From: a virus
Taxonomy: Duplodnaviria > Caudoviricetes
Direction: 5' to 3' (one strand)
IMG/VR virus record: IMGVR_UViG_3300028533_000217
Location: 1-64,000 of that record
Length of the DNA: 64,000 nucleotides
Shown here: in pieces, positions 8,061 to 53,590 of the stretch
Layout: each line of letters opens with the position of its first letter
Numbering within the stretch: position 1 is the first letter of the stretch
Made by a program: the position numbers and the translations under genes
Notes under the pieces: generated by a model
What the model was told of the DNA's origin: nothing
Database searches by the model: none
What the model saw: the letters and a program-made list of their open reading frames with translations, nothing else

Positions 8061-9011
8061 TTATCTATAAAGATTTCTTAACATTTTTTCTCCACTTTTT
8101 TCTATTATCGATTCTAATTGGAATAATGTAAATATATTATTCCCTCCTCTTCTTACAGTATTCACCATGAATATAAAATATACCATAGATTCTAGACAGA
8201 ATGGAGCAGCTTCACCGTACATAGTCATATAATTATATAGATATGTTCTAACTTGTAATTTACCTTCAAACCCTAGTCCTAATCTATCACTCGCTAAAGC
8301 ATTTATGAATGTACTTAAATCTCCATAAGCATCTTCACCGACTATATTGTCAATTTCTCTTAAAGTATATGGAGAAACTCTATCTGCCACTTTAGAACTT
8401 ACATTGAATATATACTCTTCGTTATCTATTCCTAGTACATTTTTTAAATAAAATTTACTAGCTAAGAATAATACTTTACCTTCTCTCGTTCCATCAACAT
8501 GAATATTAAATACTTTGTTTATAGGTTTTATAAATATATTAGCATACATTAAAGCTCCCTGTTGTCTCATTAAAGTATCATTTTTTACACTATTATAGTT
8601 ATCTGCAAAATTTTTAGCTAAGTATGCACTTTCCATTAATGTATATAATAGTCCTCCTTGTATACTTAATAATCCGTCAGATCGCATATTACAGAATGGA
8701 TTTAAGAATACAATTACTTTATGACCCATTTGCCCTGGAACTAATATAAAAGGCATAACTTTAGATAATGGAACGTTATCCGCATAAACTAATTCTATTC
8801 TACCTTCTTTGTATTCTGTCATAACTCTTTGTTTTAATAATGATCGTTCGTAATTTTTAATATGAACAAATTGTTCTAATAAATCTTTTTCAGTTAATTT
8901 TCTACCTTTCATAACTGCTTCATTTATTCTACCAGTAAGTTGTGTTCCACCTAGGTTTTTAAATATAAACGTACTTGTAATTGGTTTATAGCCTGCCATA
9001 CTAATTTTCAA
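8061..9011 (-). CDS. Hypothetical jumbo-phage protein (late promoter; possibly virion)
   Basis: 316-aa ORF, AAGGAG RBS, AACA-N6-TA upstream. Confidence 0.75.
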   Translation of the reverse strand: MKISMAGYKPITSTFIFKNLGGTQLTGRINEAVMKGRKLTEKDLLEQFVHIKNYERSLLKQRVMTEYKEGRIELVYADNVPLSKVMPFILVPGQMGHKVIVFLNPFCNMRSDGLLSIQGGLLYTLMESAYLAKNFADNYNSVKNDTLMRQQGALMYANIFIKPINKVFNIHVDGTREGKVLFLASKFYLKNVLGIDNEEYIFNVSSKVADRVSPYTLREIDNIVGEDAYGDLSTFINALASDRLGLGFEGKLQVRTYLYNYMTMYGEAAPFCLESMVYFIFMVNTVRRGGNNIFTLFQLESIIEKSGEKMLRNLYR

Positions 9012-9348
9012 CTCCTTATTAAAAGATTCTTTTCTCTATTAAAGAATTGTTTTAATAGAGAAAAAATATTGATAACCCTAATAAAGGATTATCAATATTT
9101 ATGTATTAAGGTAATATATTGAGTCAAATAACAACAAATTGTTCATTGAAAATGAACGTAGCTCCCCAACCGTATTCTAAATAATAACAACTTATTACTC
9201 TCCACTCACCCTTTTAGAGGGTTCGTTTTGTAATTAATGCTTTGCATTAATAAGTTGTTGTGTTGTTGAAATTTTATAATTTTTTGTCTAAAATGCTAGC
9301 ATATGAAACAATAATTATTATAAAGGAACATAGAAAAAATATACTAGC

Positions 9349-10434
9349 CTAAGCTAGTATATTTATATATCCTAAATTATGAAACATAGTTAATAAACTA
9401 TTCCATAATTCAGATTTTTCTTTTTCTAATTCTTTTTCATTTTCAGGATATTTAAATCCAAAATCATGATGTCTTTTCTTTAATTTATCAAACATTTTCT
9501 TTGTTTCTTTATGTCCTATCTTACGTCCAAATTCTTTTATGTTATTATCAATATCTGTATATTCTTTATAATTGTCTGTGGTTTTTAAGGTTATATCCTT
9601 ATTGGCTTTTTGTAAAATATTACATATATAAGCTATATGACCAAATATATCTTTATATTTATATAATGATTTATTTCCATTGTTGAACTTCATTATTATA
9701 TCAGAAACTATCAAAGATATATCTATCAATATATCTTTGTCTAATTGACGTATAACATAAAGCTGATTACATTGTTCATTTAAACTTGTATTAAGGAAAT
9801 ATTGCGTTAATATAAAGTTAGTTATAAATCCTGAATAAAATGATTGGTCTATAGAGGCTAAAGAACTATCTAACATTGTTATTAATCGTATTGTAAATTC
9901 TGAAATTGTTTCTTGTAAATAATCTTCTTCTATTGCATATTTTCCGTCATTAAAATTTTCTTCAGAAATATTAAATGATGGATATTTTAATGAATTAACA
10001 AATTTTATATCTGTTTGCTTAGATGAATCTTCTGTATAGATTTCTGTTATCGTAAGGGTGTAATCTTTACTTTTATTAGATCTATTATAATCGTGTACTG
10101 TTGCTTTAAATTTCATTATATGTCCGTCAAAATATAATTTACTATACCATTCTTTTGGTACGTCTATGTGAAGATGATCATACATGAATTTATTTTGAGA
10201 ATGTAAATTTGTAAATGTTACGGGTATACAACCTTTAAATGCTTTTTCACCAAATTGACCAACACAATATGCTGAATATTCATACTCTTCATTTCCGGCA
10301 TCGAATCTTTCTTTTAAGTTGTATCTTTGATTGAAATGATTTGTTATGTTTATAGAATTATCAATTGTACCATGGTCACCTATGATCTGTGATCCATTAT
10401 TATCATTCATATTAATATTTGACATAAATATCAC
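9349..10434 (-). CDS. Hypothetical protein with a possible N-terminal OB-fold
   Basis: 361-aa ORF with RBS; DHLHIDV..GHIMKFKATVHDY resembles an OB-fold strand pattern. Confidence 0.7.
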   Translation of the reverse strand: MIFMSNINMNDNNGSQIIGDHGTIDNSINITNHFNQRYNLKERFDAGNEEYEYSAYCVGQFGEKAFKGCIPVTFTNLHSQNKFMYDHLHIDVPKEWYSKLYFDGHIMKFKATVHDYNRSNKSKDYTLTITEIYTEDSSKQTDIKFVNSLKYPSFNISEENFNDGKYAIEEDYLQETISEFTIRLITMLDSSLASIDQSFYSGFITNFILTQYFLNTSLNEQCNQLYVIRQLDKDILIDISLIVSDIIMKFNNGNKSLYKYKDIFGHIAYICNILQKANKDITLKTTDNYKEYTDIDNNIKEFGRKIGHKETKKMFDKLKKRHHDFGFKYPENEKELEKEKSELWNSLLTMFHNLGYINILA

Positions 10435-10462
10435 TCTCCTATATTTTTAATAAATAAAAATA

Positions 10463-10488
10463 GAGTATACTCAATATTGAGTATACTC
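10463..10488 (-). terminator. Intrinsic terminator between the RNA repeat array and the 361-aa gene
   Basis: Perfect palindrome GAGTATACTCAATATTGAGTATACTC followed on the minus strand by TATTTTTATTT. Confidence 0.7.
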
Positions 10489-10509
10489 ATTTATAAATTC
10501 AATACTTAA

Positions 10510-10682
10510 GATACAATGTTAGCTATAGAGCCTGCCCTCTATCAGCATATAGTATAGAGCCTGCCCTCTATCACTATACATCATATTGTATCAAATATAT
10601 GTAATGTTAGCTATAGAGCCTGCCCTCTATCAGCATATAGTATAGAGCCTGCCCTCTATCACTATACATCATATTACATATA
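10510..10682 (-). ncRNA. Two-unit structured RNA repeat (88-bp period) carrying four 21-bp hairpin repeats
   Basis: TATAGAGCCTGCCCTCTATCA x4 (10524, 10553, 10612, 10641); closing stems differ but both pair (GATACAAT/ATTGTATC; TATATGTAAT/ATTACATATA). Confidence 0.7.
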
Positions 10683-10705
10683 CGCATTTAATCATTTGTT
10701 ATCAT

Positions 10706-10741
10706 TTATATAATATATAATTGAAATATAACCTTTTTACA
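10706..10741 (-). promoter_or_regulatory. Phage early-type promoter driving the repeat array
   Basis: Reverse complement TGTAAAAAGGTTATATTTCAATTATATATTATA, identical to the copy at 53548. Confidence 0.75.
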
Positions 10742-10796
10742 TTTCATTTAATATACAACATTACTGTAATTTGATTAAAATAAAGGAGGAGATGTT

Positions 10797-11129
10797 ATGA
10801 GAACTACATTCACTTTATATAGATATGAAAGCTTAATTAAAACACCAATGCTTTATGTTGAAGAATTACCTGAAAAGCAAACATTTAAGATAAGAGTAGA
10901 AGGAGATAATATAGAAGAAATATTAGATAGAATTTATTTACCTGAAAGATTAAAACAAGACATGAGAAATGATATAGTCAATATAGTAAAAGGATATCAA
11001 ATGTTAACTATGAATATGTCTTATACGCAAGAGAATGTTAACTTATGTAAAAAATATTTCAGAGATATGCTTGATAAATTTTGCATAATTCATGGTAGCT
11101 TTTATAAATTTGACGAAGACGAAATATAA
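10797..11129 (+). CDS. Hypothetical protein
   Basis: AGGAGG RBS; AACA-N6-TA at ~10757. Confidence 0.75.
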   Translation: MRTTFTLYRYESLIKTPMLYVEELPEKQTFKIRVEGDNIEEILDRIYLPERLKQDMRNDIVNIVKGYQMLTMNMSYTQENVNLCKKYFRDMLDKFCIIHGSFYKFDEDEI

Positions 11130-11144
11130 GGAGGGTAAATTTAT

Positions 11145-11798
11145 ATGGGAAAATATTCAGATCATTCAACTTATATGAATAAAGGGATGGAAGAAGTTCC
11201 ATCAGTCACAACTATTTTAAAAATATTAAATAAACCATTTATAGCTAATTGGGCTAATAGTTTAGGATGGAAAAGACAATCGTATGAAAAAGTGTTAGAA
11301 GAAAAAGCTGCTAAAGGAACATTCGTTCACGCTTTATATCATGAATATTTATTTAAAGAAGGACAGCAGTTTGACATTTCAGATCCGAATAGAATTGAGT
11401 TTATTAAAGAATATATAGCAGGATTTAAACAATTTTTAGAAGACGTTGAATTGGAACCTGTATGGGGTGAAAAATCATTTAGTACGGATTCATATGGAGG
11501 TACGGTGGATTTATTATGTAATCTAGATAAAAAACTAACAATATTAGATTATAAGACTTCTAAAAAAGTGTATTCTTCACATTTTATACAATTAGGAGCT
11601 TATATACAGTTATTGGAATATAATGATATTTATGTTGAACAAGTTGGAATTTGTCAAGTTGATGATGGTGGGAAGATTAATTTAACCTTAAAATCTAGAG
11701 ATGAAATGTTAGAATATATGGAACTATTTAATAAATTAAAAGATGTATTTTATTTAGTATACGAACTTAATAAAGAATGGGGTGATATGTTAAAATGA
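11145..11798 (+). CDS. PD-(D/E)XK exonuclease (RecB/Cas4-like)
   Basis: PSVTTIL, KGT.VH, GGTVDLL, ILDYKTS, QLGAY motifs. Confidence 0.85.
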   Translation: MGKYSDHSTYMNKGMEEVPSVTTILKILNKPFIANWANSLGWKRQSYEKVLEEKAAKGTFVHALYHEYLFKEGQQFDISDPNRIEFIKEYIAGFKQFLEDVELEPVWGEKSFSTDSYGGTVDLLCNLDKKLTILDYKTSKKVYSSHFIQLGAYIQLLEYNDIYVEQVGICQVDDGGKINLTLKSRDEMLEYMELFNKLKDVFYLVYELNKEWGDMLK

Positions 11799-18655: not shown

Positions 18656-18911
18656 ATGTGAAGTGTACTGTACAGATGTGTAAGCATCCAAATAGTTCGA
18701 AACGAGGGGTTCAACGTAAACGTTGATTATATGATAATTGTGAATTATCAGCCGCAAGGAATAGGCTATTTGTCAAGCATTTATGTGAAGTGTACTGTAC
18801 AGATGTGTAAGCATCCAAATAGTTCGAAACGAGGGGTTCAACGTAAACGTTGATTATATGATAATTGTGAATTATCAGCCGCAAGGAATAGGCTATTTGT
18901 CAAGCATTTAT
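18656..18911 (+). ncRNA. Tandem pair of identical 127-nt structured RNA units (family A/B, locus A)
   Basis: Exact direct repeat 18656..18782 / 18783..18909; GC-richer than flanks; multiple hairpins; homologous to 42005..42282; enclosed by inverted repeats 18621..18645 / 18919..18943. Confidence 0.8.
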
Positions 18912-18962: not shown

Positions 18963-19616
18963 ATGTATTTAGAAATATGTTCAAATGTTCATGAGGAGTA
19001 TGTAGGTAAAGGAGATTCAATGGTTCATGTTAATGTTAGATTTTGGGTTGATGTTAACAATGTATATTGGTATAGTTATGTAGATATATGTAAATTGGTG
19101 TCATTAAACGAAAACGTCGCAAATAGATGGTATAGATATGAAATGATGGATAATGAAAAATGTACATGTATGGATTCAAATAATTATGATCAATACAACG
19201 TTCAACAACCAAAACCTGTAGATTTTATAACGAGCGAAACTGCAAAATTAGTAGTCCAAAGACATGCCGATTATATATCAGAAAGAGATAATAACATAAT
19301 AAAATCTTTAAATAATCTAGAATGTGTAGGAAATGCTTTTGAAGTATTCCAAGACGCTGAAGAAATAAAACAGCATAAACAAAAGATATATGAAAGTATA
19401 GAAAATAATGATTATGAATCATTCTTCTTCCATTGTCATAAAGTTTCACAAACTAAAACATGTAGAGATACATTATCTAAGAGAGGTGTAATTGATAAAG
19501 ATATGGAGGAAGCTCTTGATACGATACGCGAATATTTATACAACGAACCAGAAACTAAATGTGTGTATGGTAAAAATGATTTTAATGACATAATATGGGA
19601 GTATGATGAGTTTTAA
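18963..19616 (+). CDS. Bro-N domain protein, paralog of 42340..43020
   Basis: VRFWVD.NNVYWYSYVDICKLV..DNEK..FITSE matches the Bro-N pattern VR..D.EPWF..D.C..DDDK..FINE. Confidence 0.7.
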   Translation: MYLEICSNVHEEYVGKGDSMVHVNVRFWVDVNNVYWYSYVDICKLVSLNENVANRWYRYEMMDNEKCTCMDSNNYDQYNVQQPKPVDFITSETAKLVVQRHADYISERDNNIIKSLNNLECVGNAFEVFQDAEEIKQHKQKIYESIENNDYESFFFHCHKVSQTKTCRDTLSKRGVIDKDMEEALDTIREYLYNEPETKCVYGKNDFNDIIWEYDEF

Positions 19617-24202: not shown

Positions 24203-24291
24203 GGAGAAATCCTTATCTTTTTTTCTATTGTAAAAAGGTATTATTTCAATTATATATTATATAGTTGAAATAAATAAAAAATATTGGAGGT

Positions 24292-42004: not shown

Positions 42005-42282
42005 ACTGTGAAGTCGATATGAATATGTAAGTCAAAAGCTTACATACAATGGCGCGAAACAAGTGGTGCTGATGTAAACATCAGATGGATGGCAGGTGTG
42101 ACCTGACAGCCATGCGGAATAGGTCATTGTCAAACAGTATTTACACTGTGAAGTTCATATCATATGTAAGTCAAAAGCTTACATACAATGGCGCGAAACA
42201 AGTGGTGCTGATGTAAACATCAGATGGATGGCAGGTGTGACCTGACAGCCATGCGGAATAGGTCATTGTCAAACAGTATTTA
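42005..42282 (+). ncRNA. Tandem pair of near-identical ~139-nt structured RNA units (family A/B, locus B)
   Basis: Units at 42005 and 42145 differ only just after GAAGT; AACA-N6-TA at 41988; homologous and covarying with 18656..18911. Confidence 0.8.
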
Positions 42283-42297
42283 ATTTACTTTTACATA

Positions 42298-42339: not shown

Positions 42340-43020
42340 GTGATTTATATGTATATAACAATAGAATCTGAAGTTCATAAAGATTGGGGTTATGGATTAG
42401 AATTTAGATATTACGTTGACATGGATAATACATGGTGGTATTGTTATGAAGATATATGTGATTATATAGAATTAAATCAACAAGTTGCTGATAAAATATA
42501 TAGACACAAATTACAAGAAGATGATAAAAGAACCGTATATGACAGAAACCATAACAATAATCGTGGGGAACAAGAAACGATAGTTCTATATTTTATATCT
42601 TCCAATGCTGTAAGATATATGGTGAAACGTAATAATGAACGTAACAGTAGATTAATAAAGGTTATGAACAATTTGGAATTCGTTAGTGGAGCTCATGAAA
42701 TATTTAACGATAACGAAGAGTTAAAAGAAAGAATAAATGTTTTAGGTAAATCTATAGAAAAATATGATTATGAAGAAATATTCTATCAGGCAAAACAATT
42801 AGTTGAATCTGAATCGGGTAAAAATATATTAGACAAGATGGGAGTTATAGATAAAGATAAAGAATCTTTAATAGAACAGATAAAACATGAGATATACGAT
42901 TATGATGAAAATATAGAAGAAGTACAATTAACCATGAGAAACCTAAATGAAGAAAAGAAAGTTAAATTTAAAAAATCAGAAACAGAAATTCCTAAGTGGT
43001 TAAGTGAAGTTGTGAAATAA
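42340..43020 (+). CDS. Bro-N domain protein, paralog of 18963..19616
   Basis: FRYYVDMDNTWWYCYEDICDYIEL..RHKLQEDDK..GEQE..YFISS; shared C-terminal NNLE.V..A.E.F.D.EE.K..YE..F..GVIDKD.E; likely ATG 42349. Confidence 0.75.
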   Translation: MIYMYITIESEVHKDWGYGLEFRYYVDMDNTWWYCYEDICDYIELNQQVADKIYRHKLQEDDKRTVYDRNHNNNRGEQETIVLYFISSNAVRYMVKRNNERNSRLIKVMNNLEFVSGAHEIFNDNEELKERINVLGKSIEKYDYEEIFYQAKQLVESESGKNILDKMGVIDKDKESLIEQIKHEIYDYDENIEEVQLTMRNLNEEKKVKFKKSETEIPKWLSEVVK

Positions 43021-45205: not shown

Positions 45206-45306
45206 ACGGATGATTAATTTCATCCGTCTTTTTTCTAATGTAAAAGATAAAATTTCAATTATATATTATATCAATGAAATAAATAATATATAATTGGAGG
45301 AGTAAC

Positions 45307-53547: not shown

Positions 53548-53590
53548 TGTAAAAAGGTTATATTTCAATTATATATTATAATAATGAATA
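53548..53590 (+). promoter_or_regulatory. Early-type phage promoter (representative copy)
   Basis: TGTAA-N~10-TTT(C)AA-N3/4-ATATTATA-N4/5-TGAA; similar copies near 6283, 6963, 17862, 17929, 21752, 24229, 36593, 39568, 45239, 47200, 49581, 60166 and 10741 (-). Confidence 0.8.

What the first reader, a model, noticed from the sequence alone, without database searches (positions are those of the whole stretch)
9349..10741. Promoter / hairpin-repeat RNA / terminator / unknown ORF: type III TA-like or RNA-sponge locus
Seen on the minus strand: an early promoter, two 88-nt-period units, a terminator with U tract, then a 361-aa ORF with a possible OB-fold. Each unit is a three-way junction carrying two identical bulged hairpins (G bulge, AUAGAG-GGCAGG-CUCUAU). 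The outer stems have different sequence but both pair fully, and the lower stems of the two hairpins also differ compensatorily (UAUAGU/ACUAUA vs GCU/AGC). Known: type III TA loci have repeat-terminator-toxin order, but their antitoxins are pseudoknots and the toxins are smaller. Inference: a multivalent protein-binding RNA for the downstream protein, or a decoy against a host defence protein.
Basis: partly seen in the sequence, partly recalled or inferred. Interest (0 to 1): 0.75.

Follow-up and report, generated by a model that had tools for sequence, protein, structure and literature searches.

The report
Jumbo-phage twin-hairpin RNA with partner protein
An uncultured giant phage carries a compact cassette (phage promoters, a folded RNA repeated twice, a terminator, then a protein gene of no known family), and the RNA and protein travel together in every relative found, so this is probably a new RNA-protein pair laid out like a type III toxin-antitoxin system.

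Summary
On the minus strand, 10681-10510, lie two 88-nt units, each a three-way junction with two identical bulged hairpins (AUAGAG-GGCAGG-CUCUAU). Upstream are AR9-type early and late phage promoter motifs. Downstream come a strong intrinsic terminator and, with no room for another promoter, a 358-aa ORF.

The RNA is real. 17 of 29 pairs show compensatory changes across related loci, wobble pairs favour the ORF strand, and Rfam has no match. Every ORF homologue with enough upstream sequence (33-88% identity) has the RNA and a terminator. The same phage has a second cassette outside the window, with a 33%-identical paralogue and different hairpins (GCAGAG-GGUGGA-CUCUGU).

The protein matches no Pfam, PHROG, PADLOC, NCBIfam or PDB sequence. 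Its model shows an OB fold plus a helical domain with no clear structural match.

Best reading (about 0.5): the terminated RNA is the main product and binds and restrains the protein, which is made only by read-through. This is the logic of ToxIN or AbiF-RCd22, but with an unrelated RNA and protein. Binding, toxicity and transcripts are untested.

This scan found the same kind of cassette before on other DNA (e1-5657648) and reached the same reading.

The parts
10710..10722 (-). Early (virion RNA polymerase type) promoter box AATTATATATTAT; the predicted start is G at 10703, 6 nt downstream.
   Evidence: It differs at one position from the AR9 early consensus AAATATATATTAT-(6N)-G+1 (PMC5312081; sequence). 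The extended 29-nt box recurs at 24233, 45242 and 53552 (+), each about 30-35 nt before an ORF start.
10689..10700 (-). Late (non-virion RNA polymerase type) promoter AACA-AATGAT-TA; the predicted start is A at 10689, 8 nt before stem P1 of unit 1.
   Evidence: It matches the AR9 late consensus AACA-(6N)-TA/G, whose last base is the TSS. By my reading, the same motif sits just upstream of the RNA in L005, L006, L008, L009, L013, L020, L025 and L031.
10597..10681 (-). RNA unit 1, a three-way junction. P1 is 10681-10673 with 10605-10597; bulged hairpin P2 is 10666-10636; bulged hairpin P3 is 10634-10610.
   Evidence: The covariance model R1 scores it 102.5 bits.
10510..10592 (-). RNA unit 2, with a core identical to unit 1 and a different P1. 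P1 is 10592-10585 with 10517-10510; P2 is 10578-10548; P3 is 10546-10522.
   Evidence: R1 scores it 105 bits.
10489..10509 (-). AU-rich spacer that begins with a conserved YUUAA just after the last unit. No conserved alternative (antiterminator) pairing was found.
   Evidence: The alignment of 12 loci, from the last AGCUAA to the start codon, has only the terminator hairpin as conserved structure.
10453..10488 (-). Intrinsic terminator: an 11-bp stem (GAGUAUACUC / GAGUAUACUC), a 4-nt loop and a U tract.
   Evidence: The hairpin is kept in 12 loci with different sequences, and 8 of 10 pairs show compensatory changes.
10436..10440 (-). Ribosome-binding site AGGAG, 10 nt before the ATG. About 12 nt (10452-10441) separate it from the U tract, which leaves no room for a separate promoter.
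   Evidence: Sequence.
9349..10425 (-). ORF of 358 aa (stop codon included in the coordinates). Residues 1-31 are N-rich and disordered, 34-137 form an OB fold, and about 155-350 form a helical domain.
   Evidence: There are 10 plus 18 homologues and none has an annotation.
9337..9364 (-). Second intrinsic terminator, which closes the cassette. The stop codon lies in its loop.

Best explanation
This is a self-contained RNA-protein cassette of an AR9-like jumbo phage.

Shown:
- The cassette runs: phage early and late promoter motifs, a structured RNA, a strong intrinsic terminator, a ribosome-binding site, and a 358-aa protein gene.
- The RNA consists of one or two three-way-junction units. Each unit displays two bulged hairpins whose loops and bulge nucleotide are the same in both hairpins.
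- No promoter fits between the terminator and the gene.
- The RNA and the protein family are linked in every locus where this could be examined.
- Two paralogous cassettes with different hairpin tips sit in the same phage.

Inferred:
- Most transcripts stop at the terminator and give an abundant RNA of about 237-250 nt. The protein is made only from read-through transcripts.
- The protein binds the twin hairpins through its OB-fold face, one hairpin per protomer or site.
- The RNA thereby holds the protein in check, by sequestration together with dosage control by the terminator. This is how ToxI restrains ToxN and how RCd22 restrains AbiF.

I put direct RNA-protein binding at about 0.65. I put 'the protein is harmful when free, so this is a toxin-antitoxin or abortive-type module' at about 0.35.
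For: - RNA structure: 95.5% of cells are paired and 17 of 29 pairs have compensatory changes; 0 of 500 shuffles reach this, and slid controls pair in 21-55% of cells (narrower set).
- Strand: G.U pairs outnumber A.C pairs 13 to 4 on the ORF strand. Variant stems add more wobbles, for example GCAGAG/CUCUGU.
- Promoters: they match published AR9 consensus motifs, and the window encodes a phage RNA polymerase beta subunit.
- Terminator: it is conserved by covariation, and no conserved antiterminator exists.
- Linkage: all 15 ORF homologue loci with at least about 150 nt upstream carry a hairpin RNA plus a terminator. Five truncated loci show its 3' end, AGCUAA.
- Self-containment: the hairpin motif and model R1 hit nothing else in the phage except the two cassettes.
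- Twin loops: within a unit the loops stay alike while the stems drift. Examples are L031 (AUGGA vs AUAGG stems, same AUUAUUAA loop), L037 and L008.
- Protein: the OB fold resembles nucleic-acid binders, including the anticodon-loop-binding domain of AspRS/AsnRS (Z 7-8). The residues conserved family-wide (N73, H75, D83, H84, H86, Y113, R115) lie on strands 2-4 of the barrel.
- Asymmetric decay: one locus keeps the RNA with only a 6-codon ORF stub. Another keeps an expanded hairpin array before an ORF with an internal stop. No ORF was found without the RNA.
- Experimental analogue with the same layout: AbiF-RCd22 (bioRxiv 10.1101/2025.04.15.648962).
Against: - No transcript, binding or toxicity data exist for this family.
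- The protein has no similarity to ToxN, CptN, TenpN or Abi_2, and no recognisable nuclease fold.
- The RNA is not a pseudoknot, and no conserved processing site is visible between units.
- Hairpin differences between paralogues may simply reflect divergence rather than selected specificity. One identical protein (P0007) occurs with two hairpin variants.
- A lytic jumbo phage has no obvious need for an addiction module.
- The single-unit loci may be assembly collapses, so the copy-number argument is weak.
Confidence: 0.5

Rival explanations
1. The RNA is purely an autogenous regulatory leader. The protein has another job, such as binding ssDNA or RNA during replication or recombination, and it binds hairpin mimics in its own 5' leader to cap its own synthesis. 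T4 gp32 and E. coli ThrRS work this way; ThrRS uses two anticodon-arm mimics bound by a dimer. No toxicity is involved.
For: - The RNA lies in the 5' leader of the only mRNA that can encode the protein.
- The OB fold resembles SSB, RPA, MCM-N and aaRS anticodon-binding domains.
- The cassette sits next to an exonuclease, an Mre11-like phosphoesterase and DnaB in the window and in L005.
- The hairpin motif occurs only in the protein's own leader.
- The gp32 and ThrRS comparisons rest on my own knowledge.
Against: - No conserved antiterminator or RBS-sequestering structure links the hairpins to the terminator or the RBS.
- The hairpins lie more than 80 nt from the RBS.
- Genomic context varies between phages (dNK, TSCPD, peptidase, ClpP, terL), as for a mobile accessory cassette rather than a core replication gene.
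- An intact orphan RNA persists without its ORF.
Confidence: 0.25
2. The RNA is a cofactor or scaffold of a ribonucleoprotein that acts on other targets, so RNA and protein work together rather than against each other.
For: - Strict co-inheritance of RNA and protein.
- The junction core (AUG, UGCU, AGCUAA) is conserved while the hairpin tips vary.
Against: - There is no variable single-stranded guide-like segment; the variable P1 arms pair with each other.
- No enzymatic domain is recognisable in the protein.
Confidence: 0.1
3. The RNA is a decoy or sponge for a host protein, for example a defence or RNA-binding protein, and the downstream ORF is only a co-transcribed passenger.
For: - Multivalent identical hairpins, and predicted high expression from early plus late promoter motifs.
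- An orphan RNA copy exists without the ORF.
Against: - Hairpin loops differ strongly between paralogous cassettes in one phage, and they track the protein subfamily. That is not expected for one host target.
- The link to this one protein family is constant while the neighbouring genes vary.
Confidence: 0.07
4. The repeats act as DNA: iterons or operators, or hairpins extruded at a replication origin, bound by the downstream protein as an initiator or repressor.
For: - The 18-bp motif is an inverted repeat with conserved arms and a more variable centre.
- The best OB-fold matches are MCM N-terminal domains, Z 8.2.
- The locus lies at a divergent intergenic region beside replication genes.
Against: - Compensatory changes keep P1 and the lower P2 stem paired although they are not repeated sites.
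- Wobble pairs are strand-biased, 13 G.U to 4 A.C, and the variant stem GCAGAG/CUCUGU is not a DNA palindrome.
- The element is framed by promoter motifs and a terminator on one strand in all loci.
- In most relatives the locus is not divergent.
Confidence: 0.05

Closest known systems
AbiF_Cd-RCd22 of the C. difficile phi027 prophage (bioRxiv 10.1101/2025.04.15.648962 / PMC12373285)
   Same: The layout is the same:
- one promoter;
- a short ncRNA with two copies of a conserved hairpin motif;
- a Rho-independent terminator;
- no second promoter;
- an RBS and a protein gene of about 300-350 aa.

In that system the short RNA is the main transcript and the protein comes from read-through. The RNA lowers expression in cis and neutralises the toxic protein in trans by direct binding. 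It is also carried by a phage of a low-GC gut bacterium.
   Different: - The RNA here is a three-way junction with twin bulged hairpins, not the abiF motif. RF03085 gives no match at E <= 10.
- The protein is an OB fold plus a helical domain, not Abi_2/HEPN.
- The carrier is a lytic-type jumbo phage with its own RNA polymerase promoters, not a prophage using SigA.
- Nothing here has been tested experimentally.
Type III toxin-antitoxin systems ToxIN, CptIN and TenpIN
   Same: Tandem RNA repeats, then a terminator, then the protein gene in one transcription unit. The terminator sets the RNA:protein ratio, and RNA-protein pairs are cognate. This comparison rests on my own knowledge of the family.
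   Different: - Type III antitoxins are 34-45-nt pseudoknot repeats cut out by the toxin. Here the units are 88-nt three-way junctions with no visible processing site.
- Type III toxins are endoRNases of about 160-200 aa (my own knowledge). Here the protein has 358 aa and is unrelated, with no PADLOC or Pfam hit.
Autogenous operators bound by nucleic-acid-binding proteins (T4 gp32 leader; E. coli thrS operator with two anticodon-arm mimics)
   Same: A protein with an OB-type or anticodon-binding domain recognises hairpin mimics in its own mRNA leader, and two equivalent hairpins serve a two-site binder. This comparison rests on my own knowledge.
   Different: Those operators overlap or abut the RBS and act on translation. 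Here the hairpins are separated from the RBS by a strong terminator, and no switching structure is conserved.
AR9 early and late promoters (PMC5312081)
   Same: The early box and the AACA-N6-TA late motif are both present in tandem. In AR9, genes with both promoter types are expressed continuously.
   Different: The early box has one mismatch. The phage is only distantly related to AR9; its DnaB is about 24% identical. Promoter use has not been tested.

Membership tests
Type III toxin-antitoxin (ToxIN/CptIN/TenpIN) | Tandem direct repeats encoding the RNA lie immediately upstream of the protein gene in one operon. | tested here: met
   Two 88-nt units are present, as in L005, L008, L009, L016, L020, L025 and L037. 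Some loci show one unit, possibly through assembly collapse.
Type III toxin-antitoxin (ToxIN/CptIN/TenpIN) | A Rho-independent terminator lies between the RNA repeats and the toxin gene. | tested here: met
   The terminator is conserved with compensatory changes in 12 loci.
Type III toxin-antitoxin (ToxIN/CptIN/TenpIN) | The toxin belongs to the ToxN/CptN/TenpN endoribonuclease families. | tested here: not met
   There is no PADLOC, Pfam, NCBIfam or PDB-sequence hit. The model is an OB fold plus a helical domain.
Type III toxin-antitoxin (ToxIN/CptIN/TenpIN) | The antitoxin units fold as pseudoknots and are excised by the toxin. | tested here: not met
   The covariation-supported fold is a nested three-way junction. 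Processing cannot be tested with these tools.
Type III toxin-antitoxin (ToxIN/CptIN/TenpIN) | The protein is toxic and is neutralised by its RNA. | not testable with these tools
   This needs expression assays.
AbiF/Abi_2 with abiF-motif RNA | The abiF RNA motif (Rfam RF03085) lies upstream. | tested here: not met
   cmscan of 9000-11200 at E <= 10 lists no abiF match. The whole window has no Rfam hit at gathering score.
AbiF/Abi_2 with abiF-motif RNA | The protein carries the Abi_2 (PF07751) HEPN-type domain. | tested here: not met
   Pfam gives no family at E <= 0.01. The C-terminal domain folded alone has no HEPN protein among its matches, which by itself is inconclusive.
OB-fold nucleic-acid-binding proteins | A five-stranded closed beta-barrel resembles known nucleic-acid-binding OB domains. 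| tested here: met
   The model has pLDDT 82 and pTM 0.83, with strands at 48-57, 66-76, 79-90, 102-114 and 120-129. VIA-align gives Z 8.2-6.5 to MCM-N, AspRS/AsnRS N-domains, RPA, SSB and PriB over residues 34-137. A shared fold shows no function.
AR9-type jumbo-phage transcription unit | An early consensus AAATATATATTAT-(6N)-G and/or a late consensus AACA-(6N)-TA/G lies upstream of the transcript. | tested here: met
   Sequence against the consensus in PMC5312081. A phage RNA polymerase beta subunit is encoded in the window. Promoter activity was not tested.
Iteron/initiator replication origin | The repeats act as double-stranded sites, with no selection for intrastrand pairing or for one strand. 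| tested here: not met
   Compensatory changes occur in P1 and lower P2, G.U pairs outnumber A.C pairs 13 to 4 on the ORF strand, and the variant stems are not palindromic.

The most novel reading that the evidence does not exclude
A new class of phage-borne RNA-protein toxin-antitoxin-like systems. An OB-fold protein, possibly a His-dependent RNase using the conserved N73/H75/D83/H84/H86/Y113/R115 face, is kept inert by a twin-hairpin three-way-junction RNA. Several orthogonal paralogous pairs occur per jumbo-phage genome, perhaps serving competition between phages or control of the host.
Probability: 0.3. Interest if true: 0.85.

Novelty: new variant of a known kind. Interest (0 to 1): 0.7.

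Why it matters
If the reading holds, the RNA-antitoxin and leader-sRNA logic known from ToxIN and AbiF-RCd22 extends to an unrelated RNA fold and an unrelated protein fold, and to lytic jumbo phages with their own RNA polymerases.

It would add a well-supported new structured RNA family with 17 covarying pairs, and a new OB-fold protein family with no annotation.

The two paralogous cassettes in one phage give a natural test of RNA-protein specificity.

The twin identical bulged hairpins are a compact, modular protein-binding RNA that could become a tool comparable to MS2 or PP7.

The same phage has other cassettes of the form 'tandem RNA, hairpin, gene', so this may be a general regulatory style of these phages.

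Tried and rejected
- Rfam: cmscan of the region at E <= 10 and of the whole window at gathering score found no relevant family.
- Protein annotation: Pfam, PHROGs, PADLOC, NCBIfam, a PDB profile search and the ESM Atlas by features gave nothing for the ORF.
- Phage records: megablast and tblastn against GenBank phages found no match for the locus or the ORF.
- Whole-protein structure search: Foldseek against the PDB gave nothing at E <= 0.001.
- C-terminal domain: folded alone (pLDDT 87), its best hit is DdrC 7qvb at Z 7.0, below the level that is meaningful for helical folds, and Foldseek found nothing. The Atlas shape search gave only weak rows.
- Homodimer prediction (complex prediction, two copies): no verdict, score 0.01. 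This is not evidence either way.
- Collection scans for relatives of the protein: metagenome contigs and genome contigs gave none. IMG/VR gave only two contigs.
- RNA pattern scans of IMG/VR: the exact motif gave none. The degenerate hairpin-junction pattern found only the same two contigs. A loose junction pattern gave 110 stretches, and among the 80 loci returned none matched model R1.
- Riboswitch or antiterminator idea: rejected, because no alternative pairing is conserved between the RNA and the terminator.
- Other RNA classes considered from the sequence and my own knowledge, and rejected:
  - Hammerhead-like core: UGAUG is present, but there is no GAAA strand.
  - CsrA sponge: the loops lack a constant GGA.
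  - HK022 put-like antiterminator: the loops differ between cassettes of one phage.
  - CRISPR-repeat mimic.
Full report
**Setting.**
- The window is the first 64 kb of a 98.3-kb IMG/VR virus contig, estimated about 47% complete.
- It encodes a phage multisubunit RNA polymerase beta subunit, topoisomerase II, an NAD ligase, a Dda-like helicase and a DnaB whose best, distant matches are AR9/PBS1 and Staphylococcus jumbo phages.
- Relatives of the locus come from gut and other metagenome contigs of 150-255 kb.
- So this is an uncultured, low-GC jumbo phage of the AR9/phiKZ transcription type.

**Observation.** On the minus strand the sequence reads, in order:
- An early-type promoter box AATTATATATTAT (10722-10710), with a G six bases downstream at 10703.
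- A late-type motif AACA-AATGAT-TA (10700-10689).
- Two 88-nt units (10681-10597 and 10592-10510).
- An AU-rich spacer.
- An 11-bp terminator hairpin with a U tract (10488-10453).
- AGGAG (10440-10436).
- An ORF from ATG 10425 to the stop at 9349, closed by a second terminator (9364-9337).

The two promoter motifs match the experimentally defined AR9 consensus sequences. These are early AAATATATATTAT-(6N)-G+1 and late AACA-(6N)-TA/G, where the last base is the TSS. In AR9, genes with both promoter types are expressed continuously (PMC5312081). The extended early box recurs three more times in the window, each time shortly before an ORF.

The 73-nt cores of the two units are identical. The 18-nt hairpin motif occurs four times against 0.03 expected, and nowhere else in the contig. 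Folded as RNA, the region gives two three-way junctions, each with two G-bulged hairpins AUAGAG-GGCAGG-CUCUAU, followed by the terminator (-79.7 kcal/mol, z -5.4).

**Is the RNA real?** The ORF has 10 close and 18 more distant homologues, all unannotated. I fetched their loci.

- All units align without gaps. Across 17 units from the window and seven other loci (one of them the phage's second cassette), the proposed structure is paired in 95.5% of cells, and 17 of 29 pairs show changes on both sides. No shuffle of 500 reaches this, and slid registers pair in only 21-55% of cells (narrower set).
- P1 differs in almost every unit yet stays paired, with compensatory changes at 8 of 8 pairs.
- The lower P2 stem covaries: UAUAGU/ACUAUA, UACAGU/ACUGUA, UGUGGU/AUCACA, UAUAUU/AAUAUA.
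- The upper stems change in more distant members: AUAGAA/UUCUAU, AUAGGG/CCCUAU, GCAGAG/CUCUGU, AUGGA/UCCAU, AUAGG/CCUAU.
- Wobble pairs favour the ORF strand, 13 G.U against 4 A.C.
- Single units fold into the junction as the MFE structure in 14 of 17 cases.
- Rfam has no match.
- The terminator is also kept by covariation, with 8 of 10 pairs compensatory. It is the only conserved structure between the RNA and the start codon.

**Linkage to the ORF.**
- Every homologous locus with about 150 nt or more of upstream sequence has the RNA and a terminator. These are L005, L006/7, L008-L013, L016, L020, L021, L025, L037/38, and L036, which has a diverged hairpin array.
- Contigs cut closer to the gene still show the RNA's 3' end (hairpin, AGCUAA, P1 arm) plus the terminator: L015, L017, L018, L039 and L040.
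- Only L019 is unclear and L014 is too short.
- Model R1, built from the units, finds a second cassette in the same phage outside the window (G000:C1:79950-80126, minus). It has the same promoter boxes, two units with hairpins GCAGAG-GGUGGA-CUCUGU, a terminator and a 354-aa paralogue that is 33% identical.
- In two related 200-kb phages, R1 finds a further unit with AU-rich loops (AUUAUUAA) followed by a terminator and only a 6-codon stub, MENNIN-stop, which resembles the family's N-terminus.
- One of those phages also has a very distant paralogue with an internal TAA. It is preceded by at least seven bulged hairpins of the same design: a 4-bp lower stem, a one-base 5' bulge, an 8-bp upper stem and a 6-nt loop.
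- Neighbouring genes differ from phage to phage, so the cassette behaves as a movable accessory unit.
- No relative was found in prokaryote genomes or in GenBank phages.

**What is conserved in the RNA.**
- The junction is nearly invariant in all variants: (U/G)AUG before P2, a single U between P2 and P3, GCU/AGC at the base of P3, and UAA(C/A/U) after it.
- The hairpin tips differ by subfamily. Loops are G-R-C-R-G-N with proteins of about 35% identity or more, then GGUGGA, GGUAGG, GUCGAAAAA, GUAUAGAGA and AUUAUUAA.
- Within a unit, the two loops and the two bulge bases stay the same, or differ at one base, even where the two upper stems have drifted apart (L008, L031, L037).
- This pattern fits two equivalent binding sites for one kind of ligand.
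- The ligand's only sites in the phage are in this leader.

**The protein.**
- The AlphaFold model (23-row alignment; pLDDT 82, pTM 0.83) has a disordered N-rich N-terminus, a five-stranded barrel at 34-137 and a nine-helix domain.
- The barrel matches nucleic-acid-binding OB domains at Z 8.2-6.5. These include MCM N-domain, AspRS/AsnRS anticodon-binding domain, RPA, SSB and PriB.
- The helical domain, folded alone at pLDDT 87, has no convincing match.
- Residues conserved across the whole family (N73, H75, D83, H84, H86, Y113, R115) lie on strands 2-4 of the barrel. I infer, but have not shown, that this is the RNA-binding or catalytic face.

**Mechanism.**
- Shown: the architecture, the conserved fold, the strand, the terminator, the linkage and the paralogous variants.
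- Inferred: most transcripts end at the terminator, so the RNA exceeds the protein. The protein, made by read-through, binds the twin hairpins, and the RNA restrains it.
- The experimentally studied AbiF-RCd22 system has the same layout. It has two motif copies, a terminator, no second promoter, a dominant short RNA, 17-fold derepression on deletion, and neutralisation in cis and in trans by direct binding. ToxIN-type systems share the logic.
- The asymmetric decay (RNA kept, ORF lost or broken, never the reverse) fits a harmful protein, but the sample is small.
- The main rival is plain autogenous control of a nucleic-acid-binding protein. Origin or iteron, RNP-cofactor and host-decoy readings are less likely, for the reasons given under Rival explanations.

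**Caveats.**
- Single-unit loci (L006, L010, L011, L013, L021) join the 5' P1 arm of a first unit to the 3' arm of a last unit, and they pair poorly. This is what a recombinational deletion would give, but also what an assembly collapse of an 88-nt tandem repeat would give. Copy-number polymorphism is therefore not established. L008 even has an N run inside unit 2.
- Several rows of the alignments are close relatives, so cell counts overstate the number of independent events. The pair-level counts are the safer measure.
- No expression data could be obtained.

**Earlier notes.**
- This scan already followed up a look-alike cassette in another genome (e1-5657648) and named the same closest system. 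I reached AbiF-RCd22 through my own literature search before seeing that note.
- A first-reader note (e1-5768385) had spotted the second cassette of this phage. I found it independently with R1 and confirmed it.

**Verdict.** This is a real, uncatalogued structured RNA coupled to an uncatalogued OB-fold protein. It is built like a type III or AbiF-type RNA-protein module but belongs to neither family.

Noticed in passing
G000:C1:78838-80180 (outside the window; locus L025:260-1640, minus strand): A second cassette in the same phage. It has the same early and late promoter boxes, two units with GCAGAG-GGUGGA-CUCUGU hairpins, a terminator and a 354-aa paralogue (33% identical), directly downstream of a 474-aa ORF that an earlier first-reader note calls terL (not checked here).
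   Followed up: yes
L031:1501-1740 (IMGVR_UViG_3300045988_169744, about 150.5 kb; the same in the sister contig, L030): An orphan RNA unit with AU-rich loops (AUUAUUAA) and two different but fully paired upper stems, followed by a terminator, an RBS and only a 6-codon ORF (MENNIN-stop), then a second terminator. The RNA is kept and the protein gene is lost.
   Followed up: partly
L036:930-2580 (IMGVR_UViG_3300045988_141965, about 35 kb): A very distant paralogue of the ORF family with one in-frame TAA. It is preceded by an array of at least seven bulged hairpins (AUUC-G-CACUGUGU-UAUUAU-AUGCAGUG-GAAU and a variant) and a terminator. Whether this is a pseudogene, a read-through site or a sequencing error is open.
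   Followed up: partly
window 18656-18910 (+) before ORF 18963-19616; window 42005-42290 (+) before ORF 42340-43020: Two further cassettes of the form 'tandem structured RNA (2 x 127 nt, 2 x about 139 nt), hairpin, gene'. They have a different RNA, and earlier first-reader notes call the downstream proteins Bro-N (not checked here). The layout seems to be a recurring style in this phage. Neither RNA has an Rfam match.
   Followed up: partly
window 24233-24261, 45242-45270, 53552-53580 (+): Near-identical copies of the 29-nt early promoter box AAAAGGTTATATTTCAATTATATATTATA, each about 30-35 nt before an ORF start. This is useful for mapping the early regulon of this phage.
   Followed up: partly
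window 10505-10509 (-) and the same place in 10 other loci: A conserved YUUAA directly after the 3' P1 arm of the last unit, in nearly all loci. Its purpose is unknown; it could be a processing or binding site.
   Followed up: no
L018:1364-3974: In one relative, the cassette lies next to a ClpP-like protease gene and a Tad2-like (anti-Thoeris family, PF11195) gene. This hints that the cassette sits among accessory or counter-defence genes.
   Followed up: no
L006, L010, L011, L013, L021 versus L009, L020: Near-identical phages differ in having one or two RNA units. The single-unit versions combine the outer-stem arms of two different units, so they may be collapsed assemblies rather than real deletions.
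   Followed up: partly
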